Source of the DNA: an uncultured virus (IMG/VR IMGVR_UViG_3300020576_002679)
Lineage: Duplodnaviria; Heunggongvirae; Uroviricota; Caudoviricetes
Strand: one strand, 5' to 3'
Length of the DNA: 64,000 nt
IMG/VR virus record: IMGVR_UViG_3300020576_002679
Under the pieces are notes generated by a model, which searched no databases, was not told where the DNA came from, and saw only the letters and a list, made by a program, of their open reading frames with translations. This document shows positions 14,801 through 59,461 of the stretch, piece by piece (position 1 is the first letter of the stretch; the number at the start of each line of letters is the position of its first letter). Position numbers and translations under genes: made by a program.

Positions 14801-17016
14801 GGAAGATTATCATTGTAAATACTAAGCTGCCCCGGATCTATAGTTACAGTTTGCTTTTCAATACCTACGCACTTAGGCGTTTGCCCGAATACATTAAATA
14901 AAGGAATATCAAGAAGATACCCGTAGACATTCCGAACCACAATAGAATCATAGTTTGGTATCATCCGGTCAGCAATAAATATCTCTCCGAAATATTCGTC
15001 CTGCGTAACATCTATAATCATTTCCGTGGCACCTACATACGCACCATTCGCGTCTTCAATTCTGAAAACATTGGTAGAAGTAAGATGGTACAGGTTATTA
15101 CTGAGATTATAAACTTCACCGCGCTTAAGAACATCGCCATCGCTTACCAGGTGCGAGGCAATCCGTATAATGTGTTTCCCTTTCGGAAGCCTTATGGTTA
15201 CTGTTTGATATACATCACCAGTTAAAGGGTCCGTATTAAAGCGGGCTAAATAGTTCTTAATGTCATCCTTCTTTGAACCGGCAGTAAGAAAAGCTCCATT
15301 TTCATCTGTCTGCAAACCGCCCTCCTGCTTCTGTTTACTGATAGCCCAAAAAGGAGTTCCTGCACTATAAAGCAAAAAACCACCTAGAGGAAGCCATTGA
15401 TCCCAACCGGTTTGATTAGTGCTTACATTATCTTTAGATGCACCGCCCCATGTTGCATATTCTTCATTTTCATTCCTAACTACACACCCTCTCTTGTTAG
15501 TGCGCAGCATTACCGAGTTATTGAACTGACTTGAAAAGCCAACCATATACGGCATCTTACCGATGCCGGCACCATTTTTACTACTACCATCAAAGGCAGG
15601 GTTACATATTCTTATCTTAAAGGTAGCATCGTAATACTCAGGTTTTTGAACTTCCCTGTAGGTAATATTTGTTTCAATTTCAGCGCAATCAGGAGCATCA
15701 TAATCATCAAGCGGTGCTCCATAAACAATATGGTCCTCTATAAACTTCTGTGCATCGGCCTCCCGTGGCATACGGTCATATAATAATGCCGCATAAGATT
15801 CCGAAACTGATTGAGTAAGTAGCAGGTTATCGAATACATACTTTGCTTTAGGAACTCCATTTACTACATCATAAAACTCGCACGGCTCTAGCGATATTAC
15901 TTTTCTCCATACTCCCGCATTTCGGTCATGCACGTAAAGGATAATCTTCTTAATAATAACCCACATATCAGGGTCTATCGCATCATCATTGTTAAAGTCA
16001 ACTACGCAGGTGTTGAAATTATTTCGAAGAACATCATTACATACTTCATTATTAACTGCAATCTGCGAAATAGGACTCATTACACTTGTTTCGGCATCAT
16101 CATAGTAGTAAGCTGTCCTGAACTGCCAAACGTGATTCTTTACCAAGTTGTATTTCTTAGTTGCATCCTGAGCGTATTCGTAGTTTGGTTGACATGCCGG
16201 CTGCCATTTAGCCGCATCAAAATAGCGAGCTTTCAGATTAGGTCCATACCAATTATCCGCCACTACTTTATAGTCCGTGGCACTCCAAACAAACTTATAC
16301 TTATCGGCAGTCTTTTCTTTTATCTGCAAAGTGCAACCGCATGTTTCCGCTTCCAGGTAAGAAGATATCGCGCCAGTATTAATTTGATTAGCCAGTGACT
16401 CAAATGCCTGCTTTATAGTTTGGCCTATTGTAGTATATGCCGTTATCATAGCGATATTGGCATTAGTGTAGTAATCTTTTACGGTGATAGGAAAGGAGGC
16501 GGGAAGAACAGTGTATGAAGTAGGAAGAGTAATAGTCCATGATTTTTGCTTGAACGCTAGTCCTGCCTTTGTCATGTTTATTTTACGTGGCACCGGGTCA
16601 ATCCAGTATAGAAGCTCCCCTTTTACAACATCGGCACTATGTATAGAAGTGTGACGAGTCCACCCAAAATCAAACGTAATTACATTCTCAATCGTTCCGT
16701 ATGGCTGTCCGTTTTCAATCTTCTCAATAAAGTACCTGAGTATTTTATGGTTATTGTCTTCCGCCCACAAAAAATAAATGATGGACTTACCTATCTTATC
16801 CTCTACGGTACCTAGTGACTTATGTTTTACATTGCCTAGGTCATAACTAACCAACACATTACCTTTAACAGGTCCGGCAGTCTTCTCTATATTAAGATAA
16901 GTATATGAGTTGCGAATGTTTACCGCATCGCGGCAATCAATCGCCTCTACCGAGGCATCCTCCGAATCGGTATCAATACCCCCAATCGGAACATTTGTAA
17001 TAACGAGATGGCCCAT
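11866..17016 (-). CDS. Tail stabilisation/nozzle protein (crAss-like, P22 gp10-like) with large insertion
   Basis: 1716 aa. N-terminal GGIDTD...DAVNIR, WQFRTAYYYDDAETSVMSP, GTQNPET, and C-terminal HNNFYGVQY/KKEEYF/NGKNLR motifs, all typical of this family. Confidence 0.75.
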   Translation of the reverse strand: MGHLVITNVPIGGIDTDSEDASVEAIDCRDAVNIRNSYTYLNIEKTAGPVKGNVLVSYDLGNVKHKSLGTVEDKIGKSIIYFLWAEDNNHKILRYFIEKIENGQPYGTIENVITFDFGWTRHTSIHSADVVKGELLYWIDPVPRKINMTKAGLAFKQKSWTITLPTSYTVLPASFPITVKDYYTNANIAMITAYTTIGQTIKQAFESLANQINTGAISSYLEAETCGCTLQIKEKTADKYKFVWSATDYKVVADNWYGPNLKARYFDAAKWQPACQPNYEYAQDATKKYNLVKNHVWQFRTAYYYDDAETSVMSPISQIAVNNEVCNDVLRNNFNTCVVDFNNDDAIDPDMWVIIKKIILYVHDRNAGVWRKVISLEPCEFYDVVNGVPKAKYVFDNLLLTQSVSESYAALLYDRMPREADAQKFIEDHIVYGAPLDDYDAPDCAEIETNITYREVQKPEYYDATFKIRICNPAFDGSSKNGAGIGKMPYMVGFSSQFNNSVMLRTNKRGCVVRNENEEYATWGGASKDNVSTNQTGWDQWLPLGGFLLYSAGTPFWAISKQKQEGGLQTDENGAFLTAGSKKDDIKNYLARFNTDPLTGDVYQTVTIRLPKGKHIIRIASHLVSDGDVLKRGEVYNLSNNLYHLTSTNVFRIEDANGAYVGATEMIIDVTQDEYFGEIFIADRMIPNYDSIVVRNVYGYLLDIPLFNVFGQTPKCVGIEKQTVTIDPGQLSIYNDNLPQTLENGAFATYTDHNGYFFFMMYYGSGITAAFLRAWGANDQVIAKRADTKYYGDIGQVYDNIILPGGDTLDQGLFGSGLIYNNARQGNWSQSLPDEHYYNVLGQAVNNSISGAIDITEVDREVLLLNTNTDYRPKYSTVITGTIKDANGNGICCANAVLAYNSRPAKSQEDGDFEILCFADGIHVIGLNGTPNGSYLPLTIPSTAPVAIRIDRLIFNTGDCFVLFDLVDELTVVINPFGANLTTAPPPYSSTAHFDVGDIIGNILNEILIKAAKRGSRYKLVMRFQDGPGRLCTCVDLATVDIPFPTENGIEGAPIINWLIPLSFKPPKWAHHYQFLRSENLLTANYLQWIVNDVKYVLAENQQGEPIETTFDNFDATQIWINISNISEYFRQHPDSQVGYLPAIGDRIRFIYNEKDVLFPIYNDFEVIGYYTDGQWIKLKYTNDLGEIKTGWRYEIYTKRKLLEDERFFECGECFPTTAPDTDANDFSVRNGAFTWGDTYWVKRNLPIRDLSDVSLITQVIHFMESPMINDFFPSDDEDIGRIGAIDPMFGEIRRSNILRISDGYVTRDNGLSAFRNIDDRKLDMSYGAIRKLAASGFILLAVCENRTVSNYIGRVVVKSNEGETLQALTGQFLGDTRPLQQELGTQNPETIKEFDGYVYGLDARRGVLWRYAGNGQTEISTQAKMRSYFGYYQRNGVWFANAVMDRLYKEYIITIYDKREASGSYGPGNAGLHNVTINKNITDYVKVTDEVYLSYRKNGETKTGYFIVGSLDTVNGGLTYQVGFNLDADANSEVIIYYQGEGKTISFCEPKNKFATRYTFMPEAYGSIDKDIVSIKDGKLWIHDKNAVHNNFYGVQYTSQLKPIFNENASVKLWLAISINAKQSDGKSNWSCPVVTNKNGQLSRVKNNLFKKKEEYFHSEFKFDINTPGGGPNAILNGKNLRSSTLTVLMENDYTGDFDLRSVFVGVEISERNTN

Positions 17017-39317: not shown

Positions 39318-39694
39318 AAGTTTACGAATACCATAAGTTCAGGAAGGTGTTACCAAACTACGAGATTGAGTATGATTTCTCAGGCGTAGAAATTGGTGAT
39401 GCAGTTTCCTTTGCCGGCAGTGCGTTATTCGGATCGGGTAAAGTTGTCGAAACAATGTGGCACGGCATGTATTCCGCAGCAGTCTACAAACACGCCATGA
39501 AACTAGGCGATGGCAGTGGTCCCGCAGTTTATTCTGTCCTGCAAGCAGCTATTCCATACGTGCTAGTAGTATTCGCAGAATCCCGCCCGGAAGAAGTTCA
39601 TGGCCTTCGTAGGTTTGACCTAGAAGCACATGAACATAACTTTGCTCGTAATGAAACAATTCCATTCAGAATAAGCCAAATGATAACGCCATGA
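39314..39694 (+). CDS. Hypothetical protein
   Basis: Start MKVYEY at 39314; ATGA overlaps on both sides. Confidence 0.6.
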   Translation: MKVYEYHKFRKVLPNYEIEYDFSGVEIGDAVSFAGSALFGSGKVVETMWHGMYSAAVYKHAMKLGDGSGPAVYSVLQAAIPYVLVVFAESRPEEVHGLRRFDLEAHEHNFARNETIPFRISQMITP

Positions 39695-40452
39695 AAAAGC
39701 CTATAATAGCGGTGTGGTTTTCTTGTGGGGCAGCTTCCGCTGTGGCAGCGTATTTAACGATACAGCAATACCAATCCACGCATGAAATTTTAATTTTTAA
39801 TACTCCGGTAGGAGAAGAGCATCCCGATAACCTAAGATTCAAAAAGGACGTTGAGAAATGGCTAGGCTACCCGATTATAGAAGCCATTAACTCAGACCTG
39901 CAAAGTAATTCAGCGGAAGATATTTGGAAGGAAAGAAAGTATATGGCAGGTGTCAAAGGAGCGCCCTGCACAATGCTATTGAAGAAGGAAGCGCGCTATC
40001 AGGCGGAGGTAAAGTATAATATTGCTTGGCATGTCCTAGGCTTCACTTCGGATGAAAAAAACAGGAGTGATCGCTTTATAAAATTTGAAAGGGAAAACAC
40101 AATCCCGGTTCTGATCAATTCCGGCATGACAAAAAAAGACTGTTTTACTTTCCTAGAAGAACAGGAAATAATACTACCCGAAATATACAAAGTCCTTGAT
40201 AATGCTAATTGTATTGGCTGTGTAAAATCCACTGGAATTGATTACTGGCAAAGAATTAGAAAACATTTTCCTGATGTTTTTGACCGTAGAGCAAAATTAT
40301 CAAGAGAGATAAATTGCAAGTTGATTAGATACAAAGGGAAGCGAATATTTCTTGATGAACTTCCTATAGATGCAGTAGGTAGACGAGGCCATGCGCGCCC
40401 TGAGTGTAGTATTTTTTGCAACAATCCATTAGTAAATAATAAGCCGCTATGA
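39691..40452 (+). CDS. PAPS-reductase-family (adenine nucleotide alpha-hydrolase) protein
   Basis: WFSCGAASAVA PP-loop variant, EHPDNLRF, APCT..LKK, NANCIGCVK, ECSIFC. Confidence 0.75.
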   Translation: MKKPIIAVWFSCGAASAVAAYLTIQQYQSTHEILIFNTPVGEEHPDNLRFKKDVEKWLGYPIIEAINSDLQSNSAEDIWKERKYMAGVKGAPCTMLLKKEARYQAEVKYNIAWHVLGFTSDEKNRSDRFIKFERENTIPVLINSGMTKKDCFTFLEEQEIILPEIYKVLDNANCIGCVKSTGIDYWQRIRKHFPDVFDRRAKLSREINCKLIRYKGKRIFLDELPIDAVGRRGHARPECSIFCNNPLVNNKPL

Positions 40453-41129
40453 AATACGTCAGCTACCTCCGCGTAAGCACTCAAAAGCAGGGGAATTCAG
40501 GCTTAGGACTGGACTCGCAGCGGGATATTATCCACTCGTACATAGCCCGCATGGTTGGTGCAGAATTGATTTCGGAACATATCGAAGTGGAAACCGGCAC
40601 CGCCAAAAAGGAGCGCGTAATCATCCACCAGGCGCTTGCCGAATGTAAACGCACAGGCGCAATTTTGATCGTTGCAAAGCTAGACCGGTTGGCGCGGGAC
40701 GTTCGATTTGTCCTGTCTGTCCTCGACTCAGGAGCGGAGATTGTCTTCTGTGACTTCCCTTCCGGTAATCGCCTGATGATAACCATCATTAGCGCTATCG
40801 CTGAATACGAAGCCCGGTTGATATCGGAACGAACGAAAGCAGCCCTGAATGAAAAGAAGAAGGTAATGAAGCTAGGAAACCCGAATATTCTTACCGCGCA
40901 GATTTCAGGAACCCGCGCAGCGGCAAAGGCTAGGACAGGCGCAATGACCCCAAACAGGAAGAACATGAGCACTATCAAGATGCTCCGCCAGTCAGGTCAC
41001 ACACTACAGGAAATAGCCGATACGCTTAATTCATCGGGGGAGCTTACATCTACCGGGTGCAATTTCACGTCAGGAAGTATTTATAATATTCTAACACGGG
41101 AGAAAAAAAACGAGGAAGCTGCCGTATGA
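40449..41129 (+). CDS. Serine recombinase (resolvase family)
   Basis: YLRVSTQKQ, LIVAKLDRLAR, ISERTKAAL, C-terminal HTH. Confidence 0.92.
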   Translation: MKYVSYLRVSTQKQGNSGLGLDSQRDIIHSYIARMVGAELISEHIEVETGTAKKERVIIHQALAECKRTGAILIVAKLDRLARDVRFVLSVLDSGAEIVFCDFPSGNRLMITIISAIAEYEARLISERTKAALNEKKKVMKLGNPNILTAQISGTRAAAKARTGAMTPNRKNMSTIKMLRQSGHTLQEIADTLNSSGELTSTGCNFTSGSIYNILTREKKNEEAAV

Positions 41130-42362: not shown

Positions 42363-42770
42363 GTGGCAGATAACAGATTACAACCTATTGAGAAAGTAAA
42401 GAAGGGCGAAATAGTGTGTAAGGTTGGAGGGCGCAAGAACTTCCAAACTGACGGCTATTGCCGCTATGCTAAACGCTACACTATTGACCCATGTGACGGA
42501 GGCAACAGGCAATACCTGAAGAAGGGAACGCTTGTAGATACGTTTGGGAGCGATTACGCAGACAGAGAGGAGGAGCGCAAGCAAATAGTGAGAGAAGAGA
42601 AGGGAAGCGGTTTAACGTATCGCTATAAGGTTTTATTTGGTCAGGACATAGTATTAGCTGAACGCCATGGAGCGCCAGTAAAGAAGTTTATTGTAGATAG
42701 TAGAGAAGAGGGAGTAAGATTTGCTAACCAGTTAAATAAAGCCAATGGAAACGCACAGAACATACACTAA
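42363..42770 (+). CDS. Hypothetical early protein
   Basis: A-rich start context, GTG start. Confidence 0.6.
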   Translation: MADNRLQPIEKVKKGEIVCKVGGRKNFQTDGYCRYAKRYTIDPCDGGNRQYLKKGTLVDTFGSDYADREEERKQIVREEKGSGLTYRYKVLFGQDIVLAERHGAPVKKFIVDSREEGVRFANQLNKANGNAQNIH

Positions 42771-43173
42771 ATTGAAAGCTAAATATCCCGATACTATCGT
42801 CTTAATTGGCGTAGAGAATACCTACCACACTTATGGTGAGGATGCGGAGAACATACATCTAGCGTTAACTGCTATTGGGCGGGAGGACAGCATAACATAT
42901 GCAGATGGTCACGCTTCATGTAATGCTATGGTAATACAACAGAAATTGGGCGAGCTAGTTAAACAAGGTTTGCGCATAGCCCTATGTGAAACGCTACAAA
43001 CACAAGCCGAGTATAAAGCGGCACAGGAAGCAGTAAAGGAATCAGACAAGGCTAAGAAGAAGGAATTTAGGGAGATTGACAACTTACTAGGCGGAAGATT
43101 GACAGCCATGGTAGAGCGTCTAAAATCACAGCCTAAGCAACCAGTTCAGCCGCAATTATCATTATTTCAATAA
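42745..43173 (+). CDS. Stand-alone MutS domain I-like protein
   Basis: YTKLKAKYPDTIVLI..YHTYGEDA...LVKQGLRIALCE; C-terminal QLSLF. Confidence 0.75.
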   Translation: METHRTYTKLKAKYPDTIVLIGVENTYHTYGEDAENIHLALTAIGREDSITYADGHASCNAMVIQQKLGELVKQGLRIALCETLQTQAEYKAAQEAVKESDKAKKKEFREIDNLLGGRLTAMVERLKSQPKQPVQPQLSLFQ

Positions 43174-46415: not shown

Positions 46416-47294
46416 ATGAGCCAAAAGCAAACAGTAATTGATTTTCTTTCCTCCGCCTCTACGCCAAAGAGCATAGAGGAAGTGCATGTAACCACTGGAA
46501 TACTTCGCCCGAATGTAAGACGGATATTAGGGCAGGGAGAGAAAGAAGGAACATTCACCCGAACTGCCAAAGGAGTATACACGGTAACTAGCGATGATGG
46601 AAAGGTGACAGCCTACATAGATTGCGCTGAAGCGGAAAAATCATTACCCGGACTCGTTGAACAGGGCATGAAGTTCAATATGATATTTCTCGACAGCCCG
46701 TATTTCTCCAAAGCTCTCGTAGGCGGGAACAGGGGCATCAAAGAGTATACATTCATCACCCCCGAGCAATTCAGGACGGTATGCGAGTGCGTAACCAAGC
46801 TACTGGCGGACGAGAATAGCCATGTGTATGTAATGCTGTCAGGCGCACCAACAGCACAGGCGGACATGGCACGCTATGTAAATGCGGTAACCGGTGCAGG
46901 CTTGAAACTAGTGAAAGAGGGAGGCTACACGAAAACCTTTGCCGATGGCAAGCCCGTTACTAATGTGAGAGGCGAAACAGCGAAGCCCGAGCGCCTGATG
47001 CTATTCACCCTGTCAGGACAGCCACAAGACGTATGTATCAACTTTGTATCAAAGCGCCCGAAAGGTTACGCTACCGAGAAAGCGAAGGACTTTATCCGCT
47101 CCCTGATAGAGCAGTCAACCAAAGTAGGTGACATGGTTGGTGATTTCTTCGGAGGCAGCGGAGTAACAGCAGAGCAGTCCATCATCATAGGGCGGTCAGT
47201 TTACATTATTGAGAAGTCAATCGAAACAGTAACGAATTACATCAAGCCCCGTGTAGAGGGCGCATTTCTTATTTATAACTTCCTAAACAGCTAA
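46416..47294 (+). CDS. N4/N6 DNA methyltransferase (beta order) with N-terminal winged HTH
   Basis: IFLDSPY (motif IV) precedes TEK and GDFFGGSG (motif I); N-terminal RPNVRRILG..FTRTAKGVY. Confidence 0.85.
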   Translation: MSQKQTVIDFLSSASTPKSIEEVHVTTGILRPNVRRILGQGEKEGTFTRTAKGVYTVTSDDGKVTAYIDCAEAEKSLPGLVEQGMKFNMIFLDSPYFSKALVGGNRGIKEYTFITPEQFRTVCECVTKLLADENSHVYVMLSGAPTAQADMARYVNAVTGAGLKLVKEGGYTKTFADGKPVTNVRGETAKPERLMLFTLSGQPQDVCINFVSKRPKGYATEKAKDFIRSLIEQSTKVGDMVGDFFGGSGVTAEQSIIIGRSVYIIEKSIETVTNYIKPRVEGAFLIYNFLNS

Positions 47295-47502: not shown

Positions 47503-49809
47503 ATGAAAGTAAATAGAAAAGAACTGTTCTCATCGCAGGACGAAGTAAATTGGCATCGGGAAACTGTCCGCATTATTGAATACATAAGAGCTAACGGCAT
47601 CAAGTTCGTCACGTTCGACCTGTTTTGCGGGGCGGGAGGGTTCTCTAAAGGGGCGGATGATGCAAGGCGGGATGATGGCACACGCATGACGATGATTGCC
47701 GTAGGCATAAACCATGACCGGCTAGCGATTGCCGCACATGCCGTTAACTTCCCCGATACTGTGCACCTGGTAGAAGATATCCGTGATGTGAGGCTAGCGC
47801 CATTAGGTAAGATGGCTAGAGATATCCGCGAAGCCTGCCCACATGTTCGTATATGTATGTGGGTAAGTGCGGAGTGCATCCACCACAGCAGAGCAAAGGG
47901 AGGCGATAGCCGTAATGCAGACAGCCGTTCCCTACCCGAGGAGATATATCGCTATCAGGAAGCCATCAAACCCGATTTGATACAGGTGGAGAATGTAACG
48001 GAGTTCCGCTCATGGGGACCGCTAGAGCAAAAGGTGATTGATGTAAAGCCATTGCGCCTGAAAGAATACAAGTTGAAAATGGAAACCGAGCACGGAATCC
48101 TGCGCGCACGTAATGCAAAAACGTGGATAGACTGGAATACAGGGCTAGCTTTCAAAAAGGTGAAAGGCGGAGGTGTTGAGCCGTGGATGGTACCCGTTCA
48201 GGACAGGAAAGGGGAATTTTTCAACGAATGGCGCGACCATTTGAAGAGTTTAGGGTATAAATACGAAGACCGTGACCTAAATGCGGCAGATTACGGGGCG
48301 CGCACATTCCGCGTTCGCTACTACGGACAGTTTGCCATTGACATGCCTATTCAATGGCCGAAGCAAACACACGCCAAAGACCCTGAGAAGCATTTTAAGA
48401 AGACAGGAGTAATGCTGCCGAAACATTTAGCAGTCCGTCCGCTCCTAGATTTCGATGATAAGGGCCCGAGTTTATTTGTTCCGGGTAGAATTGACAGCCC
48501 TCAAACCTTCCGTAGAGTAGGCGAGGGAGGAATTAAGTTAATAGCAGGAGGAAAGGAAGCCTACAAGGAGCGCAGGATGCTTTACGATAAGTGGCTAAAT
48601 GGTTGGAAAGTAGAGCCCGCGGCAGATAATAAGGACGGTAACGGTGAGTTTATGATTAAGTTCAATAGTGCCGTTCCTAGTAAAGACAGCTACGAGCACT
48701 GTGTAGTAGATATTGACAAGCCCGCCCCAACAGTTCCGACAGGTCACTATGTAATGAAGGTAGACCCTGAATACTTGATAAAGTATAACAGTCACAAGCC
48801 CGAGGAAGGAGATTTCAAACACAGCATTGTAGACATTGACGGACCATGTTCGACCCTGCCTACGCGCAATATGATAGCCAAAGTGTTTCCTGACTTCCTC
48901 CCGTTTATCGTCCAGTTCAATAACGGATGCGATGCCAATAGCGTGGATGAACCTAGTAAAACACTAACCGGTAAGGATAAGTTTGCCGTGGCGTTTGTGC
49001 AGCAGGCTAATAACGGGTTTGACCCCGCGGGCATGAATGCTTCAGTAGATAAACCTGCGAGAACCATCACAGCCTCCGGCACTCAGTATGTAGTTCAGGT
49101 GGAACAAATCCTCCCATTTCTTTCTAACTATCACGGTAACGGGCATAACTGCCACAGCGTGGATGCTCCTAGTCCAACTGCATGCGCAGCGGACATTCAG
49201 GCGGTGGTAAACCCCGTTCCTTTTATCTTCCGCCAGTTCGGTAAAGCAGGAGGCGGGCATATTGGTGACGTTGACAGACCCGCGGGAACGCTTACCAATT
49301 CCCCGAAGATGAATATCGTCAGCCCTGATGCGTGGATAATGGATACGCATTACAATAACGTAGGCGCTAGTGTAGATGTTCCTGCTACTACACAAACAGC
49401 TAGCCGCCATCATTCCTACATAGTAAACCCAAGCTACAACGGAAACTCGCACAGCACAGACAAGCCCTGCCCCGTTGTTGTGGCTAGACAGGACAAAAGC
49501 CCGTTACACCTAGCACAGGTGGAATACGCGAACGAAACCTACTACGGCATCATCATCTACAAAACAGACCATCCCGAGATAAAGGAATTGAAGTATCTAA
49601 TGGCCTGCTATAACATCAAAGACTTTAAAATGCGGATGCTGAAAGAGTCAGAGCTCCTACAAATTCAAGGACTGCCTAAAGACTTCTTTGACCGTGTTAG
49701 GGCAATGGGAGTGAAGATAAGTGAAACCGCGGCTAAAAAGTATATCGGTAATTCGCAGGAAGCTACACTGGCTACTGCTATTTGTGAATCATATCAATAC
49801 ACAGTATGA
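47503..49809 (+). CDS. C5 cytosine DNA methyltransferase with repeat-expanded variable region
   Basis: DLFCGAGG, SAEC (PC-equivalent), ENVTEF, AADYGA..R.R, RML...IQG, IGNS. Confidence 0.9.
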   Translation: MKVNRKELFSSQDEVNWHRETVRIIEYIRANGIKFVTFDLFCGAGGFSKGADDARRDDGTRMTMIAVGINHDRLAIAAHAVNFPDTVHLVEDIRDVRLAPLGKMARDIREACPHVRICMWVSAECIHHSRAKGGDSRNADSRSLPEEIYRYQEAIKPDLIQVENVTEFRSWGPLEQKVIDVKPLRLKEYKLKMETEHGILRARNAKTWIDWNTGLAFKKVKGGGVEPWMVPVQDRKGEFFNEWRDHLKSLGYKYEDRDLNAADYGARTFRVRYYGQFAIDMPIQWPKQTHAKDPEKHFKKTGVMLPKHLAVRPLLDFDDKGPSLFVPGRIDSPQTFRRVGEGGIKLIAGGKEAYKERRMLYDKWLNGWKVEPAADNKDGNGEFMIKFNSAVPSKDSYEHCVVDIDKPAPTVPTGHYVMKVDPEYLIKYNSHKPEEGDFKHSIVDIDGPCSTLPTRNMIAKVFPDFLPFIVQFNNGCDANSVDEPSKTLTGKDKFAVAFVQQANNGFDPAGMNASVDKPARTITASGTQYVVQVEQILPFLSNYHGNGHNCHSVDAPSPTACAADIQAVVNPVPFIFRQFGKAGGGHIGDVDRPAGTLTNSPKMNIVSPDAWIMDTHYNNVGASVDVPATTQTASRHHSYIVNPSYNGNSHSTDKPCPVVVARQDKSPLHLAQVEYANETYYGIIIYKTDHPEIKELKYLMACYNIKDFKMRMLKESELLQIQGLPKDFFDRVRAMGVKISETAAKKYIGNSQEATLATAICESYQYTV

Positions 49810-52316: not shown

Positions 52317-52476
52317 GGCACAAAAATAAAAAACCCCCACGTATTAGGTGAGGGCTTGATTTTCTGTGCTTTCCTTCCGTGTAGCAAATTCCTAACTAAA
52401 TAGTTATTGATTGTGGAAAGCAAATCTCGGGTACGTAGCCACTTCTCAGGCTTCCGCAGTTTTGACCCGCTATAAA

Positions 52477-52776
52477 TTAGGCACGTATCGGAATCACGAG
52501 AGGTATATCACGGAACGCTGTCGCAGCGGAGGCGATACCCTTCTCTCCTTTATCCAAAGGGAACGTTTGATGAGCCTCAAAATCAATGAGCTCTTTTGTT
52601 ACGAATATTTCTAAATCGGAAATCTCATCATATGGATTGAATACAGGTAAAGTAGCTTCTGTCAAGTCATTGGTGCCGGCAACAACAATCAAGGCCGTAT
52701 CATCTGTAACGCAGGTATGCAGGAGAGCAGATAACCCCGCTCCACACATTCCTATTATGATTATTCCTCTTGACAT
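52477..52776 (-). CDS. Hypothetical protein
   Basis: 99-aa ORF between two structured spacers. Confidence 0.5.
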   Translation of the reverse strand: MSRGIIIIGMCGAGLSALLHTCVTDDTALIVVAGTNDLTEATLPVFNPYDEISDLEIFVTKELIDFEAHQTFPLDKGEKGIASAATAFRDIPLVIPIRA

Positions 52777-52895: not shown

Positions 52896-53729
52896 TTAAA
52901 ATCCTCCTTCCGGCAGTTCAGGCTTAGTAGCGCCTTTAACCGCCCACATTGCCGCAGTTTCCATATCGTTCTGGGCACCGGTAAAGCCACGTTGAGCTAA
53001 ACCGCTTAAAGATTGATTTGCAAAACTTACAGCAATATTGAAGCAACGCGCAGCTTCCGGGTTAGTTGCGCGAGCTTCTTCCACTTCGCACACAGCCTTG
53101 AAGTCCTGACCAGTCTTTTTAGCATCCTCATCCGCTCTTCTTTCGATTTGTTGGATGAAGCCCGCTGCCAGTGCCTTAAGTTCATTTACCTTCGCATGGC
53201 CGCCCGGATTGAACGAAATACCTACACGATATTCGCCTAAAGTCAATTTTCTAGGCAATAAACCAGTTCCACTTTTAGGGTCCACTTCAGGCTCAGGCTG
53301 TTTATCACCTGCAAATACCTCCTCCTTTGCAACTTCTTCTACCAATTCTACCTTAGCAGCCTTTAACTCTTCTTCGGTTTTATCCTTCAAAGCATCCACT
53401 ACCGCGCAGAATAAGGCATCTTTCTTCTGCTGAAACACCGGCAATTCTTCGAACGGAACGATACAAGGGTGCGTTTTTGCATCGGCATCCTTTGTTTCTC
53501 CGTAAACCCAACCGGCATCTACTTTGTCCTTCATCCAAGCATTGTGCTGTGCATCTTTGCCGGCTTCAGGGTTATCTAAACGGAACTCAACGCCCTTGAT
53601 AGCGCTTTCACGCTGCCATTCTTCGGCTTCGTCCCAATCCTTTTGTGATGTGTCACCGTTGGCTTCACACCACGCTTTGTTTGCCTGATGGCAAACGATG
53701 GCGATTAATACTACCATTTCTTTGTTCAT
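52896..53729 (-). CDS. RyR-domain protein fused to Acb2/Tad1-like hairpin domain
   Basis: HNAWMKDKVDAGWVYGETKDADAKTHPCIVPFEELP (RyR), then LGEYRVGISFNPGG...ELK...ETAAMWAVKGATKP. Start MNKEM at 53729. Confidence 0.7.
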   Translation of the reverse strand: MNKEMVVLIAIVCHQANKAWCEANGDTSQKDWDEAEEWQRESAIKGVEFRLDNPEAGKDAQHNAWMKDKVDAGWVYGETKDADAKTHPCIVPFEELPVFQQKKDALFCAVVDALKDKTEEELKAAKVELVEEVAKEEVFAGDKQPEPEVDPKSGTGLLPRKLTLGEYRVGISFNPGGHAKVNELKALAAGFIQQIERRADEDAKKTGQDFKAVCEVEEARATNPEAARCFNIAVSFANQSLSGLAQRGFTGAQNDMETAAMWAVKGATKPELPEGGF

Positions 53730-53757
53730 GATATAATTGATTTGGTTAAAAAAACTA

Positions 53758-54402
53758 CTAAGTGAGCGAATCCAGGTGCCGGTAAATCCAACCCATTTCA
53801 GTATGACCGTTGCCATGCCATAACGCAGGAACGGTTTTATGAACGGTATTGATTATTGCGGAACCCTTAATTTGGAAATCGCTTTCAGGGCAAAATGCTA
53901 TCGTTTGAAACAAACTGCAGCGGTAATCTAGTCTAATCGCGTTATCTTCTGCCTCCCGATTTAGAAACCGGTCAGTTAAATAAACTTGATCGTTCAACTC
54001 ATTTGTAGGAGGGTTTTTCTCATACATATCAATAAACGCCTGTATCTCTCCTCCCCATCCACCACCGTTTACGAATCTCCATGGTGAATCATACTTAGGA
54101 TATAAAGGTTCTTTATCTGCATGAGGATAACATGCGCGCTCCGCGGAGAATATCAAACCATCAAAAAAATAGTCCGGCTGCTCCAACATAGCCACTGTGT
54201 CCCAAGCATCCGTATAAAGGAAATGAGAGTATTCGCGCTTAATACATGCTAGATGCTTATACGTTTCGTGTATCTTGCTGAGAAACCCATACCAAGGATG
54301 AACTATTATCTCATAATCCCACCCGAAAAAACCGAGCGACTTTTCCAGTTTATCACACTTACCTCTATTGTCGGTAGTAGTTATTAGCTTCAACTTCTTC
54401 AT
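53758..54402 (-). CDS. PLOD-type glycosyltransferase domain protein
   Basis: YTDAWDT, FSAERACYP, FVNGGGWGG, NDQVY, LDYRCSLFQ, HGNG. Confidence 0.8.
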   Translation of the reverse strand: MKKLKLITTTDNRGKCDKLEKSLGFFGWDYEIIVHPWYGFLSKIHETYKHLACIKREYSHFLYTDAWDTVAMLEQPDYFFDGLIFSAERACYPHADKEPLYPKYDSPWRFVNGGGWGGEIQAFIDMYEKNPPTNELNDQVYLTDRFLNREAEDNAIRLDYRCSLFQTIAFCPESDFQIKGSAIINTVHKTVPALWHGNGHTEMGWIYRHLDSLT

Positions 54403-55133
54403 AGCTTCTGATAGATTCTGTTATGAACTACGTTTCCTACAAATTTGTAATCGCCCGAATCAACTAGCGGGACCATTATTTCAAGAGTTGCGGCAGTGCA
54501 GGCCGCAATACCCTGAAAGAAACCATACGGCATCCTCATATCTGCGCAAGCATCATCTAACACCAAAAAACCATTGGCGTTCAATATCGGCATGTAATGT
54601 TTCATATCACTAATTACAGCATCGTAAGTATGGTCCCCATCAATATAGAGAATATCCACCTTCAATTTTTGCGCCTCTACGATAATAGAAGGTAACATAG
54701 AAGACCCGTGAAGAATGTTGTAATCCTTCTCAATTCCGAAATGGTCGTGCAGAAGCGCGATATCTGCCGCATAATCCGACTCCCAATTATCACCGGAAGT
54801 ATCAAGAGGGGTTACACCGTATCGAATTACCGTCTTCCCCTGCATATCAGCTATCAGGCGAATCAATCCAAGTATTTGCCCGCGGAATACACCAATCTCC
54901 ATAAAAGAGAATGTTTGCGGCATTTCTTGTATAATTAACCACCACATCCAAAGGAAAGAACGCTCTCCAAATCCAAAAATCTTTTGTGGAGTATCGTTAG
55001 CGCCCTCCACAAAATCACGGTAAGCCTTTAGCTTAGGTGAATTGTTTACCAGTGAATCAAATTGCTCCTTCACTGCATTGTGAAATTCGGGCGTATCAGT
55101 CCAGTTGTTTTGAAGTTCTACTAGATTTTGCAT
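54399..55133 (-). CDS. Class I SAM-dependent methyltransferase (Methyltransf_24-like)
   Basis: MEIGVFRGQ, DILYIDGDHTY, LVLDD. Confidence 0.85.
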   Translation of the reverse strand: MQNLVELQNNWTDTPEFHNAVKEQFDSLVNNSPKLKAYRDFVEGANDTPQKIFGFGERSFLWMWWLIIQEMPQTFSFMEIGVFRGQILGLIRLIADMQGKTVIRYGVTPLDTSGDNWESDYAADIALLHDHFGIEKDYNILHGSSMLPSIIVEAQKLKVDILYIDGDHTYDAVISDMKHYMPILNANGFLVLDDACADMRMPYGFFQGIAACTAATLEIMVPLVDSGDYKFVGNVVHNRIYQKL

Positions 55134-55942
55134 GTATTTAGATTAAGGTCAATAAAAGGGTTATAATAAAGAGGTTCAGTTCCGTTGTAATAGCCATCAC
55201 GAAGTTTGGCAAATGCCTCTCCGCTGCGCGATGCCTCATGCTGTTTCCAGTCCATGTATTTAGTTCCGCCCGGATCAATGTGAGAAATATCCACTCCGCA
55301 CAGGAAAGCATTTTTAAAGCCTGCTACACGGCTACGGCAGGAAATATCTACATCGTCATACCCATACAGTCCAGGCTGACGAAGATAGCCCACTTGGTCG
55401 AGCAGGGCGCTATTAAACATGGTGCACGTTCCCATGATATCCTCCGTTTGCTCCACAATCAACCATTTTTCACCGGGCTTGTGTGGAAGCATTACCAGTT
55501 TCGAACGGAAGAAGGAAGTTTCATGGTCGGGGAATTGTTGCAGGTCACGTCTTTTCAACCCTAGCACTCCTATAGCAGGGTCACGCTCTAGCGCATCCAC
55601 CATATCATCCACCCAACTGTTAGGATAGTGAACAATAACATCGTTGTCAATCTTGATAACGTGCTGACCGGGCTTACGGTACATGTTTATTCCCTGATTG
55701 ATAGCGTAAGCAGTTCCTTTGTTATCTGTGTTAGAGATAACAGCAACATTCTCATTAGTATTACAGAATCTATAGATAGCACTAACAGTTTCCTTACAAG
55801 AGCCATTATCTATAATCACAACTTTGTGATGTAGTAGTTGCTTCTGCAGTGTTCCGTAAAGCGTAGCAATAGTTAAATCAGTTCTGCCACTTCCTTCTAG
55901 GTCATGCACAGCCATACAAATCAATACTTCTTTCATATTCAA
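55121..55942 (-). CDS. GT2-family glycosyltransferase
   Basis: IIDNGS, NKGTAYAINQG, KIDND, MGTC, YGYDDVD. Confidence 0.88.
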   Translation of the reverse strand: MNMKEVLICMAVHDLEGSGRTDLTIATLYGTLQKQLLHHKVVIIDNGSCKETVSAIYRFCNTNENVAVISNTDNKGTAYAINQGINMYRKPGQHVIKIDNDVIVHYPNSWVDDMVDALERDPAIGVLGLKRRDLQQFPDHETSFFRSKLVMLPHKPGEKWLIVEQTEDIMGTCTMFNSALLDQVGYLRQPGLYGYDDVDISCRSRVAGFKNAFLCGVDISHIDPGGTKYMDWKQHEASRSGEAFAKLRDGYYNGTEPLYYNPFIDLNLNTCKI

Positions 55943-57151: not shown

Positions 57152-57396
57152 TTTGTAGACTTTTTTCTTTTGCTTTTCTGCTCCGATACCTCATCTAAAC
57201 TTTGACAAAGGTCACTGTAAGACTCTGCTTTCTGATTCAAGATGATAACCTTAATGCCATAAACATAACCGTAATCAAGAAACCCGCCACTAACGGCCTT
57301 GTCAATCTGACTGCGCTTCCGCTTTACAGCATCCGCAAACCCCTGAACTAAAATAACAGGTATGTTGGTAGTTACCTTTACTTTAACCTCAGACAT
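57148..57396 (-). CDS. Hypothetical small DNA-binding-like protein
   Basis: Coupled 82-aa ORF. Confidence 0.5.
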   Translation of the reverse strand: MSEVKVKVTTNIPVILVQGFADAVKRKRSQIDKAVSGGFLDYGYVYGIKVIILNQKAESYSDLCQSLDEVSEQKSKRKKSTK

Positions 57397-59461
57397 CGCT
57401 ATCGTTTATAATTACCGGTAATCTGTAATAGCTATTACCCTCAATATGAAATCTTGTTTCTTCTTCCTCACATTTAATACTGTTAGAAGCACCTAGCATC
57501 CAAAAACAGTTTCCGGCATAATGCTTTTTCTGTCCTGCATCTATCACTAATCCAACGGACTCATAACCCTCAAGAATTTTAATATAGCATGACCCCCACT
57601 CTATAACGAGTTTTTGCATTATCGTTTCAGTAATGGCAAAATCAGGAATACATAGTAGCAACGCAATTCCATCAGGATTTTCACCGCACCAAGTAAACAT
57701 ATACTTCTGTGCCTTATCTACGGCAGTTCCCAAGGCAGCATATTCTTCTACCCGGTTAAAGAATGAATCTTTAGGGATGATATTACCTACCGTATCTTTT
57801 GGAGTAAAGCAGCCTATCGCTGTTTCTGCTTCCGGTAACAGACCTGACATGGCAAGCATATTGAGCGCCATTTGAGTATTCTCATTTTTCAAGTTACCCG
57901 AAACAAACACACCTATCTTTCTCATAGGGAAGAACTTTTTAGTATCGGGTGCGTTCACTTCCTTACGGCTAATTTCATAAACCTTCGCACCTGCTTTACC
58001 TACCCACATTTCAGCCTCATAGCGATTGTCACGCTTTAAACTGAGGATAGGAGGAAGGAATTTTATATAGTTAGTACGGAACCAAAAGAAGTTTCCCGAG
58101 AAATGGTCCTCCCATGTGTTTTGAGCCAAAAGCCAGTTACAGCCGGCTAGCTCATAGCCTGCATCTAGCGCGCAGATGCTTTTCTTCCACAGGCGCAGAT
58201 TGTAATGATTAAGATAGTCCCGCCAGTTCTTACAGCTATCGCGCTGCTTCGTTACTCCCTTAGTATGGAAGTAAAACCCGTAAAACTCCTTTTCCGTTTT
58301 ATCGGCATCCGCTTTTATTAAGTCCAGTGCAGGGAACTCAAACACCTTTGCATCGGTAGTATAATAAACTACTTCTACCTTTTTATAGGAACGCATCAAT
58401 TTCCGAAAACTATCTAGCTCCACCGCGTTACCAACAAACGAAACTTTAATAAGCTCTAGCCTGTCATACAGGCCCGAGTTTGATATGATAGCCATTTGCT
58501 CACAAACTACGTCCCCCCAATTATTAGCAGCCATTACATGCCAGTAGCCCACTACCTTAATATCCTTAGATGGAATACGGTTTTTAGCATCGCTAGTAAG
58601 AACAAAGTCAGCAGCAATACCGAAAGCACGTCTGTAATACGCAACCAGTTTGTTATAGAAACGAGCTAATCGGTAATCGTTTTCATTACCGAGCTCCGAG
58701 CCCGCAAGAGAGAACGCAGCATAACCATGGTATAGAGTTTCCTCCGTCCAGTTCTGATGGTGCATGGTTATAAAAACAGGGTAAAATACCTTTGCCGGTT
58801 CAGGTGCAGGATATAGCCCCTCAATAGCACAGGCCATATTTATACAGAACTCTTCTGTCTTCGAACGGTGATGCTCTACATACCCGGTGAAGGTTTTATC
58901 TTTCCATACCCGCAAAGCAGTTGAAAACAAACGTTCAGCCGCTACCGACTTTCTAAAGAACAGAAAAGAAGCATTAATCTGAGGAAGAAGATTGTTGGCC
59001 GGCACCATAAAGTGATTCATAGCAGGTTCAGGCTTTCCGTCCTTTACCCACCATGTATATTTATCTGATGATTTGCCGCCTCTTTCATAGAAGCCCGTTG
59101 TCATGGCTAGAAAATCCTTTCCACCCTCACACTTATTAAACAGTGCAGCAGCGCCTTTACCCGGAAGTATTAATGTATCGGCATCCAGTAAAATAGTTTC
59201 CTCAAATGGCGATAATTCATACGCAAGAAGTTTGGCGTACATTGCCCGGTGAAGATTTACATGGTAATCTTTTAACCGCTCACTGATATCCCTGCAATGT
59301 GTGAAGAAAGAGGAGCGAATAGATACTGATGCGGGTAAGCCCTGATGAAGGAGCATAACATCAATATCGTTTGATTTGTTGGCGCGTATAGATAGGCACA
59401 GATTCAATGCCATTTCGCAGTATTTATCTCCTAGCGCAACTATTACTATTCCTTTGCTCAT
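57389..59461 (-). CDS. Multi-domain glycosyltransferase-like protein
   Basis: GT-A N-terminus (AKL.AYELSPFEETILLDADT, INASFLFF); middle YFHTKG..NFFWF..RYEAEMW domain; degenerate third copy (HYAGNCFW). Confidence 0.75.
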   Translation of the reverse strand: MSKGIVIVALGDKYCEMALNLCLSIRANKSNDIDVMLLHQGLPASVSIRSSFFTHCRDISERLKDYHVNLHRAMYAKLLAYELSPFEETILLDADTLILPGKGAAALFNKCEGGKDFLAMTTGFYERGGKSSDKYTWWVKDGKPEPAMNHFMVPANNLLPQINASFLFFRKSVAAERLFSTALRVWKDKTFTGYVEHHRSKTEEFCINMACAIEGLYPAPEPAKVFYPVFITMHHQNWTEETLYHGYAAFSLAGSELGNENDYRLARFYNKLVAYYRRAFGIAADFVLTSDAKNRIPSKDIKVVGYWHVMAANNWGDVVCEQMAIISNSGLYDRLELIKVSFVGNAVELDSFRKLMRSYKKVEVVYYTTDAKVFEFPALDLIKADADKTEKEFYGFYFHTKGVTKQRDSCKNWRDYLNHYNLRLWKKSICALDAGYELAGCNWLLAQNTWEDHFSGNFFWFRTNYIKFLPPILSLKRDNRYEAEMWVGKAGAKVYEISRKEVNAPDTKKFFPMRKIGVFVSGNLKNENTQMALNMLAMSGLLPEAETAIGCFTPKDTVGNIIPKDSFFNRVEEYAALGTAVDKAQKYMFTWCGENPDGIALLLCIPDFAITETIMQKLVIEWGSCYIKILEGYESVGLVIDAGQKKHYAGNCFWMLGASNSIKCEEEETRFHIEGNSYYRLPVIINDSDV

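What the first reader, a model, noticed from the sequence alone, without database searches (positions are those of the whole stretch)
52896..53729. RyR domain fused to an Acb2/Tad1-like domain: candidate dual signal sponge
Seen: clear RyR-repeat domain, acidic linker, then a helical hairpin ending ETAAMWAVKGATKP with an apparent extra helix (AARCFNIA...LAQRGFTGAQ). Knowledge: Acb2 and Tad1 sequester CBASS/Thoeris signalling nucleotides; the function of phage RyR domains is largely unassigned. Inference: the fusion suggests RyR is itself a nucleotide-signal binder.
Basis: partly seen in the sequence, partly recalled or inferred. Interest (0 to 1): 0.7.

Follow-up and report, generated by a model that had tools for sequence, protein, structure and literature searches.

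The report
Phage RyR–Acb2 fused signal sponge
A phage gene joins two small domains, each from a family known to soak up bacterial alarm nucleotides, so it most likely disarms two immune signalling pathways at once; the idea is sound, but both families and the fusing of such domains are already in print.

Summary
Window 52896-53729 (minus strand) encodes a 277-aa protein. It has an N-terminal RyR/Repeat12 domain (Pfam PF02026, E 1.5e-10), an acidic and partly disordered linker, and a C-terminal Acb2/Tad1-hairpin-family domain. That domain carries about 38 extra residues and is predicted to form a four-helix bundle.

This is correct, but two 2026 preprints already report it (RyDEP; RyR Tad): phage RyR domains sequester, or rarely cleave, the Thoeris signals 2'/3'-cADPR. 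This protein keeps every ligand residue those papers mutated. It is 53% identical to a sponge-type homologue they tested.

The C-terminal domain is Acb2-type by sequence: 117 of the 120 best hits carry PF24729. It falls just under Pfam's cut-off, and fold searches returned only generic helical bundles. Tested relatives with the same FNP motif mostly block cGAMP or cUA CBASS.

Sponge-sponge fusions are published (Acb4-Tad2, Acb4-Sequestin). I found no RyR-Acb2 fusion in the texts I searched, although it is common: at least 45 of 113 RyR homologues, plus one cultured roseophage.

Verdict: a new variant of a known kind, of modest interest.

The parts
52896..53729 (-). Coding sequence of the 277-aa RyR–Acb2-type fusion protein (stop codon 52896-52898)
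   Evidence: ORF list and translation. The start fits the N-termini of homologues.
53385..53729 (-). N-terminal RyR / Repeat12-like domain, residues 1-115. Four helices: 3-23, 37-52, 58-71, 98-114.
   Evidence: Pfam PF02026 E 1.5e-10. PDB sequence hits to RyR Repeat12. AF2 model with pLDDT above 90 across the domain. Foldseek probability 1.0 to Bt-RyR and hRyR3 R12. 53% identity to Ruegeria phage gp55, which is RyDEP homologue H4. Q39 matches RyDEP Q54 by eye.
53535..53546 (-). H62...W65. These correspond to RyDEP H75/W78 and RyR Tad H129/W132 (ribose contact or catalytic His; adenine-stacking Trp).
   Evidence: Ungapped offsets of 13 and 67 residues, read from the sequences and the residue numbers. 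Invariant in 20 homologues.
53469..53492 (-). K80...H87. These correspond to RyR Tad K147/H154 and RyDEP H100 (phosphate contacts).
   Evidence: Same ungapped offsets. Invariant.
53418..53423 (-). K103-D104. These correspond to RyR Tad K170/D171 and RyDEP D117.
   Evidence: Same offsets. D104 is invariant in 47 sequences.
53250..53384 (-). Acidic linker, residues 116-160: an amphipathic helix at 119-136, then a Pro/Glu-rich low-confidence stretch.
   Evidence: Composition. Block pLDDT of 52-56 and secondary structure. Linker length varies among homologues.
52899..53249 (-). C-terminal Acb2-type (Acb2/Tad1 hairpin family) domain, residues 161-277.
   Evidence: PF24729 at 25.7 bits, E 1.3e-5. 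117 of the 120 best phmmer hits carry PF24729. Family profile: 145 of 149 top relatives match PF24729. Model pLDDT 95.5.
53175..53213 (-). F173-N174-P175 ... K185: the invariant segment before and within helix 1 of the hairpin; a candidate ligand pocket.
   Evidence: F, N and K are invariant in 27 C-terminal domains. By eye, they line up with the pocket positions of Acb2_43 (L6/V7, K19) described, using the sequence.
52992..53132 (-). Two extra helices (residues 200-220 and 224-246) absent from ordinary hairpin domains.
   Evidence: Alignments. A profile of short family members matches 161-208 and 226-270 as two separate pieces. Models. The same insertion occurs in P0002, P0110, P0114 and P0283.
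52926..52949 (-). M261-W-A-V-K265-G-A-T268: the conserved last-helix motif of the family.
   Evidence: M and V are invariant, and K and T nearly invariant. The motif aligns with T4 Vs.4. K265 lines up by eye with Acb2_43 K55.

Best explanation
The gene encodes a two-module counter-defence protein of a tailed phage.

Module 1, the RyR/Repeat12 domain (residues 1-115), binds the Thoeris alarm nucleotides 3'cADPR and 2'cADPR in the pocket lined by Q39, H62, W65, K80, H87, K103 and D104. It withholds them from the ThsA-type effector. It most likely acts as a sponge; glycosidase activity is less likely.

Module 2 is an Acb2-type helical domain (residues 161-277). It self-assembles and binds a second nucleotide signal, most likely a CBASS cyclic dinucleotide such as 3'3'-cGAMP. 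The candidate pocket uses F173, K185 and K265.

One polypeptide would therefore blunt two signalling immune systems.

Shown here: the domain identities, the conservation of the ligand residues, the modular architecture, and its recurrence.

Inferred: ligand binding by either module of this particular protein, the identity of the second ligand, and the oligomeric state.

My sub-odds: RyR module binds cADPR isomers, about 0.8. C-terminal module binds any immune nucleotide, about 0.6. Both modules bind, with different signals, about 0.45.
For: RyR module:
- Pfam and PDB sequence matches.
- 53% identity to Ruegeria phage vB_RpoP-V12 gp55. Its sequence is identical to homologue H4 in supplement table 2 of PMC13232231. 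The paper reports that H4 binds 2'/3'-cADPR with nanomolar Kd and blocks type I Thoeris.
- All five RyDEP residues tested by mutation (Q54, H75, W78, H100, D117) have counterparts here. So do all six RyR Tad residues (H129, W132, K147, H154, K170, D171). The offsets are ungapped apart from Q39. These positions are invariant in 20 homologues.
- Six of the eight homologues tested in that paper bound the signals.

C-terminal module:
- A phmmer search with the domain alone gave 231 hits at E<=1e-3, and 117 of the 120 listed carry PF24729.
- 22 of the 27 aligned fusion C-domains match PF24729, with a best E of 5.8e-15.
- The family profile found 3345 cluster representatives. Of the top 149, 145 match PF24729.
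- T4 Vs.4, a solved member, matches the same Pfam family at 7e-20.
- In Table S2 of PMC12393519, I found seven tested 'Acb2' proteins with the same FNP...MWAVK-type motifs (motif search plus parts 1 and 3 of 5). Four blocked the cGAMP CBASS (#8, #12, #41, #42). One blocked the cUA CBASS (#15). One of the four (#12) also blocked type I Thoeris. Two (#2, #24) blocked nothing.

Fusion logic:
- Among 113 RyR homologues of 152-485 aa, 34 carry PF24729, 15 carry Tad2-like PF11195 and 1 carries PF13876. Eleven more have an FNP-type C-domain by alignment. PF13876 is the Acb4 family.
- Published work shows that sponge domains are often fused, and that such fusions block two systems (also Acb4-Sequestin).
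Against: - There are no experimental data on this protein.
- Its C-terminal domain scores below Pfam's cut-off (20.6 and 25.7 bits against 27).
- The roughly 38 extra residues are predicted to turn the hairpin into a closed four-helix bundle. This could change or abolish the inter-subunit pockets that Acb2 proteins use.
- Fold searches against solved structures returned only generic helical bundles.
- Sequence links to solved Acb2 members are weak: Vs.4 at E 0.096 with the profile, and hhalign probability 49% over 29 columns.
- Two of the seven tested FNP-type relatives blocked none of seven systems.
- Two of the eight tested RyR homologues did not bind.
- The host and its defence systems are unknown.
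Confidence: 0.55

Rival explanations
1. Only the RyR domain binds a signal. The Acb2-type domain has lost ligand binding and serves as an assembly scaffold that gathers several RyR pockets into one particle.
For: The extra helices are predicted to close the hairpin into a self-contained bundle. The Pfam score is below the cut-off. Two of the seven tested FNP-type relatives showed no anti-defence activity. The closest RyR relatives (81% and 77% identity) are single-domain proteins of 120-122 aa, so RyR works without a partner.
Against: The positions that form the pocket in solved relatives are kept in all 27 C-domains, including the insertion-bearing ones: F173, K185 and K265, by by-eye correspondence to Acb2_43. 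The same insertion-bearing module also occurs alone (P0283) and on unrelated N-termini (P0110, P0114). That suggests it has a function of its own.
Confidence: 0.25
2. The RyR domain is an enzyme like DyoEdafos RyDEP. It would hydrolyse the ribose-ribose bond of 2'/3'-cADPR to ADP-ribose, and the C-domain would add a sponge function.
For: The catalytic pair H75/D117 of RyDEP has exact counterparts in H62/D104. Q39, W65 and H87 are also kept.
Against: The same residues are kept in the sponge-type homologues H4 and H7, so they do not discriminate. Only RyDEP itself showed cleavage; none of the eight tested homologues did. This domain is 53% identical to sponge-type H4. No NARP1-type NAD-salvage genes were seen among the window's annotated ORFs.
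Confidence: 0.1
3. Both modules target the same pathway (Thoeris cADPR isomers). The fusion would raise capacity or broaden isomer range rather than add CBASS evasion.
For: Some Acb2 homologues bind 3'cADPR and block type I Thoeris: ten homologues, including Acb2_43. The FNP-type homologue #12 blocked type I Thoeris as well as CBASS.
Against: Five of the seven FNP-type homologues found acted on CBASS, and only one acted on Thoeris. Published fusions pair modules of different specificity.
Confidence: 0.12
4. The protein is not a counter-defence factor. It would be a nucleotide-sensing regulator used by the phage for its own purposes.
For: The gene sits at the end of a leftward block with glycosyltransferases, a methyltransferase and RNase H, not in a recognised anti-defence island.
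Against: Both domain families have experimentally shown anti-defence members. RyR is repeatedly fused to three other sponge families. The phage carries other counter-defence genes: a DarB-like giant protein and two DNA methyltransferases.
Confidence: 0.05

Closest known systems
Sponge-type RyDEP homologue H4 (Ruegeria phage vB_RpoP-V12 gp55; PMC13232231)
   Same: RyR/R12 domain, 53% identical over the whole domain, with all ligand residues kept. H4 binds 2'/3'-cADPR with nanomolar Kd and blocks type I Thoeris.
   Different: H4 is a single-domain protein of 122 aa. The window protein adds a linker and an Acb2-type domain.
RyR Tad (Pectobacterium phage vB_PatP_CB1 gp68; 10.64898/2026.06.04.730250)
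   Same: RyR domain that sponges 1''-3' gcADPR (Kd 43 nM). The six binding residues H129, W132, K147, H154, K170 and D171 all have counterparts at a constant offset of 67.
   Different: In gp68 the RyR domain is C-terminal. Its partner is an N-terminal beta domain with no activity of its own. Here RyR is N-terminal and its partner belongs to a known sponge family.
RyDEP (mycobacteriophage DyoEdafos gp78)
   Same: Same fold family. Q54, H75, W78, H100 and D117 are conserved here as Q39, H62, W65, H87 and D104. PDB chain 35tm_A (139 aa) matches residues 23-115. I take it to be this protein from its length and offset only.
   Different: RyDEP is a glycosidase embedded in a NARP1 NAD-salvage operon. 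This protein is much closer to the sponge-type members, and no NARP1 genes were seen.
Acb2 family (PaMx33 Acb2, T4 Vs.4, Acb2_43 and the FNP-motif homologues #8, #12, #15, #41, #42 of PMC12393519 Table S2)
   Same: Same Pfam family (PF24729). Same N-terminal FNP segment, helix-1 Lys and last-helix M-W-A-V-K motif as the tested FNP-type homologues. Those homologues block cGAMP or cUA CBASS.
   Different: Known members are free-standing proteins of 60-100 aa with a two-helix hairpin that forms hexamers. This domain is fused to RyR. It carries about 38 extra residues, predicted as two more helices.
Tad1
   Same: Shares the hairpin domain that defines PF24729.
   Different: The Tad1 proteins in Table S2 have an N-terminal extension of about 60-90 aa before the hairpin and a different last-helix motif. 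The window domain has the Acb2-type N-terminal segment instead. That the Tad1 N-domain forms the gcADPR pocket is recalled, not tested.
Published fused sponges: Acb4-Tad2 (Pasteurella phage Pm86), Tad2- and Acb4-Sequestin fusions, Acb4-Sequestin (Pseudomonas phage Ab09 gp59)
   Same: Two sponge modules in one chain, blocking Thoeris and CBASS together.
   Different: The domain pair differs. RyR-Acb2 was not mentioned in any text I searched.
Sulfitobacter phage phiCB2047-B SUFG_00048 (188 aa, annotated hypothetical)
   Same: RyR (PF02026, 40.5 bits) plus Acb2_Tad1_hairpin (33.4 bits, above cut-off) in the same order. 43% identical to the window protein.
   Different: Short linker and no extra helices. 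It comes from a cultured N4-like roseophage.

Membership tests
RyR / Repeat12 domain (Pfam PF02026; RyDEP / RyR Tad family) | Match to PF02026 above the curated cut-off | tested here: met
   41.6 bits against 27.4, E 1.5e-10.
RyR / Repeat12 domain (Pfam PF02026; RyDEP / RyR Tad family) | Four-helix half-repeat fold like solved R12 domains | tested here: met
   AF2 model with four helices and pLDDT above 90. Foldseek hits to Bt-RyR and human RyR3 R12 have probability 1.0, E 0.013-0.05 and TM (target) 0.35-0.53. The E-values are weak because the two-domain model was searched whole.
RyR / Repeat12 domain (Pfam PF02026; RyDEP / RyR Tad family) | Ligand-pocket residues (Gln, His, Trp, Lys, His, Lys-Asp) | tested here: met
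   Q39, H62, W65, K80, H87, K103 and D104. Offsets to RyDEP and gp68 are constant. The formal alignment to H4 keeps all of them.
RyR / Repeat12 domain (Pfam PF02026; RyDEP / RyR Tad family) | Homodimer through helices 1 and 4 | not tested
   No dimer model was made.
RyR / Repeat12 domain (Pfam PF02026; RyDEP / RyR Tad family) | Binding or cleavage of 2'cADPR/3'cADPR and rescue of phage on Thoeris hosts | not testable with these tools
   Needs biochemistry and plaque assays.
Acb2/Tad1 hairpin family (Pfam PF24729), Acb2 type | Match to PF24729 above the curated cut-off (27 bits) | tested here: not met
   20.6 bits for the whole protein and 25.7 bits for the domain alone. The shortfall of 1.3 bits coincides with the 38-residue insertion that splits the match.
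Acb2/Tad1 hairpin family (Pfam PF24729), Acb2 type | Significant sequence homology to family members | tested here: met
   phmmer with the domain alone: 231 hits at E<=1e-3, best short member 1e-11, and 117 of the 120 listed carry PF24729. 22 of 27 sister C-domains and 145 of 149 profile hits match PF24729.
Acb2/Tad1 hairpin family (Pfam PF24729), Acb2 type | Two long antiparallel helices as the core | tested here: inconclusive
   Helices 179-196 and 248-267 correspond to the family's two helices. Two further helices lie between them.
Acb2/Tad1 hairpin family (Pfam PF24729), Acb2 type | Fold similarity to solved Acb2/Tad1 structures | tested here: inconclusive
   No Acb2 or Tad1 chain appeared in the 50 rows shown by Foldseek-PDB or VIA wide; both gave only generic bundles. 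BFVD rank 1 is an 'Acb2/Tad1 hairpin domain-containing protein', E 0.075, probability 1.0, rmsd 14.9.
Acb2/Tad1 hairpin family (Pfam PF24729), Acb2 type | Hexameric assembly with inter-subunit ligand pockets | not testable with these tools
   No usable computational result (see Tried and rejected). Needs SEC-MALS or a structure.
Acb2/Tad1 hairpin family (Pfam PF24729), Acb2 type | Sequestration of a cyclic oligonucleotide or cADPR isomer | not testable with these tools
   Needs binding assays.
Tad1 | Tad1-type N-terminal domain directly preceding the hairpin | tested here: not met
   The model shows only a short helix and a loop (161-178) between linker and hairpin. The nearest tested relatives are classed as Acb2, not Tad1, in Table S2.
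Fused phage sponges (two sponge-family domains in one chain) | Both domains belong to families with experimentally shown sponge members | tested here: met
   RyR. Acb2. Domain assignments.

The most novel reading that the evidence does not exclude
The roughly 38-residue insertion defines a rare, mobile sub-type of the Acb2 module. I saw it in P0001, P0002, P0110, P0114 and P0283, on four different N-terminal contexts. It folds as a closed four-helix bundle with a changed oligomeric state or pocket. It would therefore capture a signal that no known sponge binds. Joined to dimeric RyR domains, it would build a multi-pocket particle that neutralises Thoeris and a second, possibly undescribed, signalling system in Bacteroidota-type hosts.
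Probability: 0.12. Interest if true: 0.6.

Novelty: new variant of a known kind. Interest (0 to 1): 0.33.

Why it matters
If the reading holds, one 277-aa protein lets a phage evade two nucleotide-signalling defences. RyR would then join Tad2, Acb4 and Sequestin as a module that phages routinely combine with other sponges.

The practical gains are modest:
- A common architecture (RyR with Acb2 hairpin, Tad2 or Acb4) that I did not find described in the texts I searched. It could be used to annotate hundreds of metagenomic proteins.
- A cultured example for bench work: Sulfitobacter phage phiCB2047-B.
- An insertion-bearing Acb2 variant whose assembly and ligand are open questions.

It does not open a long-standing problem. 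The surprising part, that RyR domains bind immune nucleotides, was published in 2026.

Tried and rejected
- Foldseek against solved structures with the C-domain model: best E 0.2, all generic helical bundles, no Acb2 or Tad1 in the rows shown. VIA-align wide gave the same picture, with Z up to 11.3 for unrelated four-helix bundles. Fold search can neither confirm nor refute Acb2 likeness for this bundle.
- Profile of 27 C-domains against PDB sequences: only T4 Vs.4, at E 0.096. hhalign against Vs.4 alone: probability 48.9% over 29 columns.
- Complex prediction of three copies of the C-domain: no verdict (scores 0.02, 0.56, 0.02). This is not evidence either way.
- tblastn of the C-domain against 50,697 phage records: no match at E<=1.
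- Megablast of window 17000-41000 against the same records: no match, so the phage has no close cultured relative.
- A search of the window's own genome was not possible, because none is held.
- I first suspected an N4-like phage and took the 2980-aa ORF for a virion RNA polymerase. PHROGs instead gives a DarB-like antirestriction protein at E 1.4e-276.
- A crAss-like assignment rests only on a sub-threshold hit (crAss_MUZ_C, 26.6 bits against 27). I do not claim it.
- Using the His/Asp pair to tell glycosidase from sponge: rejected, because sponge-type H4 and H7 keep both residues.
- Internal duplication as the origin of the extra helices: in P0001 the short-family profile matches positions 28-48 twice. 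In P0002 the two pieces overlap at positions 50-60. In P0114 and P0283 they do not overlap. The idea is not supported.
- Terminator and promoter scan around the gene: counts were no higher than in shuffled sequence.
- I did not type the sequences from paper supplements into any tool. Comparisons with RyDEP, gp68, Acb2_43 and the Table S2 proteins are therefore by eye. The exception is H4, which I fetched from its phage record.
Full report
**The gene**

The window carries a minus-strand ORF at 52896..53816. I accept that start for two reasons. The N-termini of 19 homologues align with it. The preceding gene ends at 53758-53760, which leaves a 28-nt A+T-rich spacer with no Shine-Dalgarno-like motif.

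The window is phage DNA. It holds a terminase large subunit, a portal protein, virion proteins, a tail fibre and an amidase endolysin. It has no close cultured relative, and no host genome is held for it. The five closest loci with RyR relatives (65-81% identity) lie in assemblies labelled Bacteroidota, Bacteroidetes, Cytophagales or Runella. With a G+C content of 42%, this hints at a Bacteroidota host but does not prove one.

**N-terminal domain**

- Residues 61-104 match Pfam RyR (PF02026) at E 1.5e-10, above the cut-off.
- The protein matches solved RyR1-3 Repeat12 domains and the Bacteroides thetaiotaomicron RyR-like protein by sequence.
- The AlphaFold2 model, built from a 47-sequence alignment, has mean pLDDT 89.6. 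It gives four confident helices for residues 1-115. Foldseek returns the same RyR structures with probability 1.0.

**What is known about such domains**

PMC13232231: I read the abstract, parts 1-2 of the text, a term search and supplement table 2. I did not read its PDF supplement.
- It shows that mycobacteriophage DyoEdafos RyDEP cleaves 2'/3'-cADPR.
- Six of eight other phage RyR domains bound these signals without cleaving them.
- Homologues H4 (Ruegeria phage) and H7 (Pectobacterium phage) acted as nanomolar sponges that block type I Thoeris.

10.64898/2026.06.04.730250: I read passages only.
- It independently describes H7's protein, gp68, as 'RyR Tad'.
- It reports a crystal structure and the binding residues H129/W132, K147/H154 and K170/D171.

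In the window protein, H62, W65, K80, H87, K103 and D104 sit at a constant offset of 67 from the gp68 residues. They sit at a constant offset of 13 from RyDEP H75, W78, H100 and D117. Q39 matches RyDEP Q54 by eye. All of these are invariant in 20 homologues.

I fetched H4 from its phage record. It is identical to the supplement sequence and 53% identical to the window domain.

The His/Asp pair cannot separate enzyme from sponge, because H4 and H7 keep it too. I favour a sponge because of the closeness to H4, and because none of the eight tested homologues cleaved the signals as RyDEP does.

**Linker**

Residues 116-160 are acidic (13 D/E against 8 K/R). The model shows a helix at 119-136 followed by a low-confidence stretch. 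Linker length varies widely among homologues.

**C-terminal domain**

Pfam's Acb2_Tad1_hairpin (PF24729) scores 20.6 bits in the whole protein and 25.7 bits (E 1.3e-5) on residues 161-277 alone. The cut-off is 27. Strictly, the cut-off is not met. Homology is nevertheless clear:
- A phmmer search with the domain alone found 231 proteins at E<=1e-3. Of the 120 listed, 117 carry PF24729.
- Of the 27 aligned C-domains of sister fusions, 22 match PF24729, with a best E of 5.8e-15.
- Their profile finds 3345 cluster representatives (1931 at E<=1e-10). Most of these are free-standing proteins of 75-150 aa. Of the top 149, 145 match PF24729.
- T4 Vs.4, a solved member of the family, matches PF24729 at 7e-20. 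That Vs.4 binds cGAMP is recalled, not checked here.

The domain is Acb2-type, not Tad1-type. Its N-terminal 'FNP' segment and its last-helix M-W-A-V-K motif recur in proteins that Hadary et al. list as Acb2 in Table S2 of PMC12393519. I ran a motif search on that table and read parts 1 and 3 of 5. The other supplements were not read. The Tad1 entries in the table have a long N-terminal extension instead.

**The extra helices**

Compared with ordinary members such as P0264, the window domain has about 38 extra residues. A profile built only from short members matches residues 161-208 and 226-270 as two separate pieces.

Both AlphaFold2 models predict four long helices: 179-196, 200-220, 224-246 and 248-267. 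The domain-alone model has pLDDT 95.5, but only 3 of its 27 alignment rows carry the insertion.

The same insertion occurs in:
- P0002, fused to RyR;
- P0114, fused to a zinc-ribbon-like N-terminus;
- P0110, with another N-terminus;
- P0283, free-standing.

So this is a conserved, mobile sub-type and not an artefact.

Because the model is an up-down four-helix bundle, fold searches returned only generic bundles. The viral predicted-structure library did put an 'Acb2/Tad1 hairpin domain-containing protein' first, but weakly.

**Likely ligand of the C-domain**

According to section 5 of 10.1101/2025.08.24.671296, Acb2 proteins form hexamers with pockets between protomers. PaMx33 Acb2 uses Y11 and other residues for cGAMP. 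Acb2_43 uses L6/V7, K19 and K55 for 3'cADPR.

By eye, the family-invariant F173, K185 and K265 of the window protein line up with L6/V7, K19 and K55 of Acb2_43. This is an inference, not a computed alignment.

I found seven FNP-type homologues in Table S2:
- #8, #12, #41 and #42 blocked the E. albertii CBASS (3'3'-cGAMP);
- #15 blocked the Y. aleksiciae CBASS (3'3'-cUA);
- #12 also blocked type I Thoeris;
- #2 and #24 blocked nothing.

A CBASS dinucleotide is therefore the best guess. A cADPR isomer is the second.

**Architecture in context**

Among 113 RyR homologues of 152-485 aa:
- 34 carry PF24729;
- 15 carry Tad2-like PF11195;
- 1 carries PF13876, which one search gives as the Acb4 family;
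- 1 carries a DHHA1 domain;
- 11 more have an FNP-type C-domain by alignment.

The length window excluded single-domain RyR proteins, so these fractions overstate how often RyR is fused. The two closest RyR relatives are in fact single-domain proteins.

Among 50,697 cultured-phage records, 297 hold a RyR match, and none covers 80% of the window protein. One phage, Sulfitobacter phage phiCB2047-B, has the insertion-free fusion (188 aa, both Pfam domains above cut-off).

**What is in print**

Sponge-sponge fusions, and the idea that a sponge's fusion partner is itself a sponge, are published. 10.1101/2025.07.12.664507 describes Acb4-Tad2 and the Sequestin fusions (passages). The RyR Tad preprint describes Acb4-Sequestin.

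I found no mention of RyR fused to Acb2, Tad1 or Tad2 in the following:
- library searches;
- term searches in the main text of the RyDEP preprint and in the RyR Tad preprint;
- term searches in the Hadary preprint.

Figures and unread supplements could still hold it.

**Verdict**

The striking element, that RyR domains bind immune nucleotides, is already known. What remains new is the RyR-Acb2 pairing as a common architecture, and an insertion-bearing Acb2 module of unknown assembly and ligand.

Noticed in passing
window 3-8942 (-), runs off the window start: A giant ORF of more than 2980 aa matches PHROG 10089, 'DarB-like antirestriction', at E 1.4e-276, plus methyltransferase-type families. 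It is a further counter-defence gene of this phage.
   Followed up: partly
window 46416-47294 (+) and 47503-49809 (+): Two DNA methyltransferases, one N6/N4 type and one 768-aa C5 type. They are probably anti-restriction genes.
   Followed up: no
window 53758-55942 (-) and 57389-59461 (-): Just upstream of the target, in the same orientation, lie a PLOD-type glycosyltransferase, a class-I methyltransferase, a GT2 glycosyltransferase and a 690-aa protein with a weak mannosyltransferase hit. Their substrate (DNA, virion or host surface) is unknown.
   Followed up: no
window 52477-52776 (-) and 52331-52357 (-): A 99-aa ORF lies 119 nt downstream of the target with no Pfam or PHROG match. A terminator-like hairpin follows it (the count was no higher than in shuffled sequence). 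It may be co-transcribed with the target.
   Followed up: partly
proteins P0010, P0016, P0018, P0020 and others; P0095; P0055: RyR is also fused to Tad2-like domains (15 of 113 hits) and to PF13876/Acb4 (P0095). By eye, P0095's N-terminus resembles that of RyDEP-paper homologues H6 and H8. RyR is also fused to a DHH/DHHA1 phosphoesterase (P0055, 400 aa), which could be a signal-degrading partner.
   Followed up: partly
proteins P0115, P0153, P0257 and rows 36, 41, 65, 73 of alignment A4: The Acb2-type hairpin is a promiscuous module. It occurs as tandem copies in one chain (P0115, P0153). It is also fused to Tad2 (P0257), to PF21825/Sequestin (2 of 149) and to thioredoxin (2 of 149).
   Followed up: partly
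proteins P0042, P0058, P0059, P0065, P0066, P0070, P0073, P0074, P0076, P0078: A second kind of RyR fusion partner is also labelled PF24729 but has a different motif (…SLAITKLQE.IMWLGMDLKRL…PNPYP…). It resembles tested Acb2 #5 of Table S2, which blocked the cGAMP CBASS.
   Followed up: no
L010 3989-4555 (Sulfitobacter phage phiCB2047-B SUFG_00048): A cultured N4-like roseophage encodes an insertion-free RyR + Acb2-hairpin fusion annotated as hypothetical. It sits beside thymidylate synthase and dCTP deaminase genes.
   Followed up: yes
window 11866-17016 (-): A 1716-aa virion protein has a just-sub-threshold hit to the crAss muzzle C-terminal domain (26.6 bits against 27). This is not enough to call the phage crAss-like.
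   Followed up: no
window 40449-41129 (+), 39691-40452 (+), 42745-43173 (+): A resolvase-type serine recombinase, a PAPS-reductase-like protein and a stand-alone MutS domain I protein lie in the replication block.
   Followed up: no
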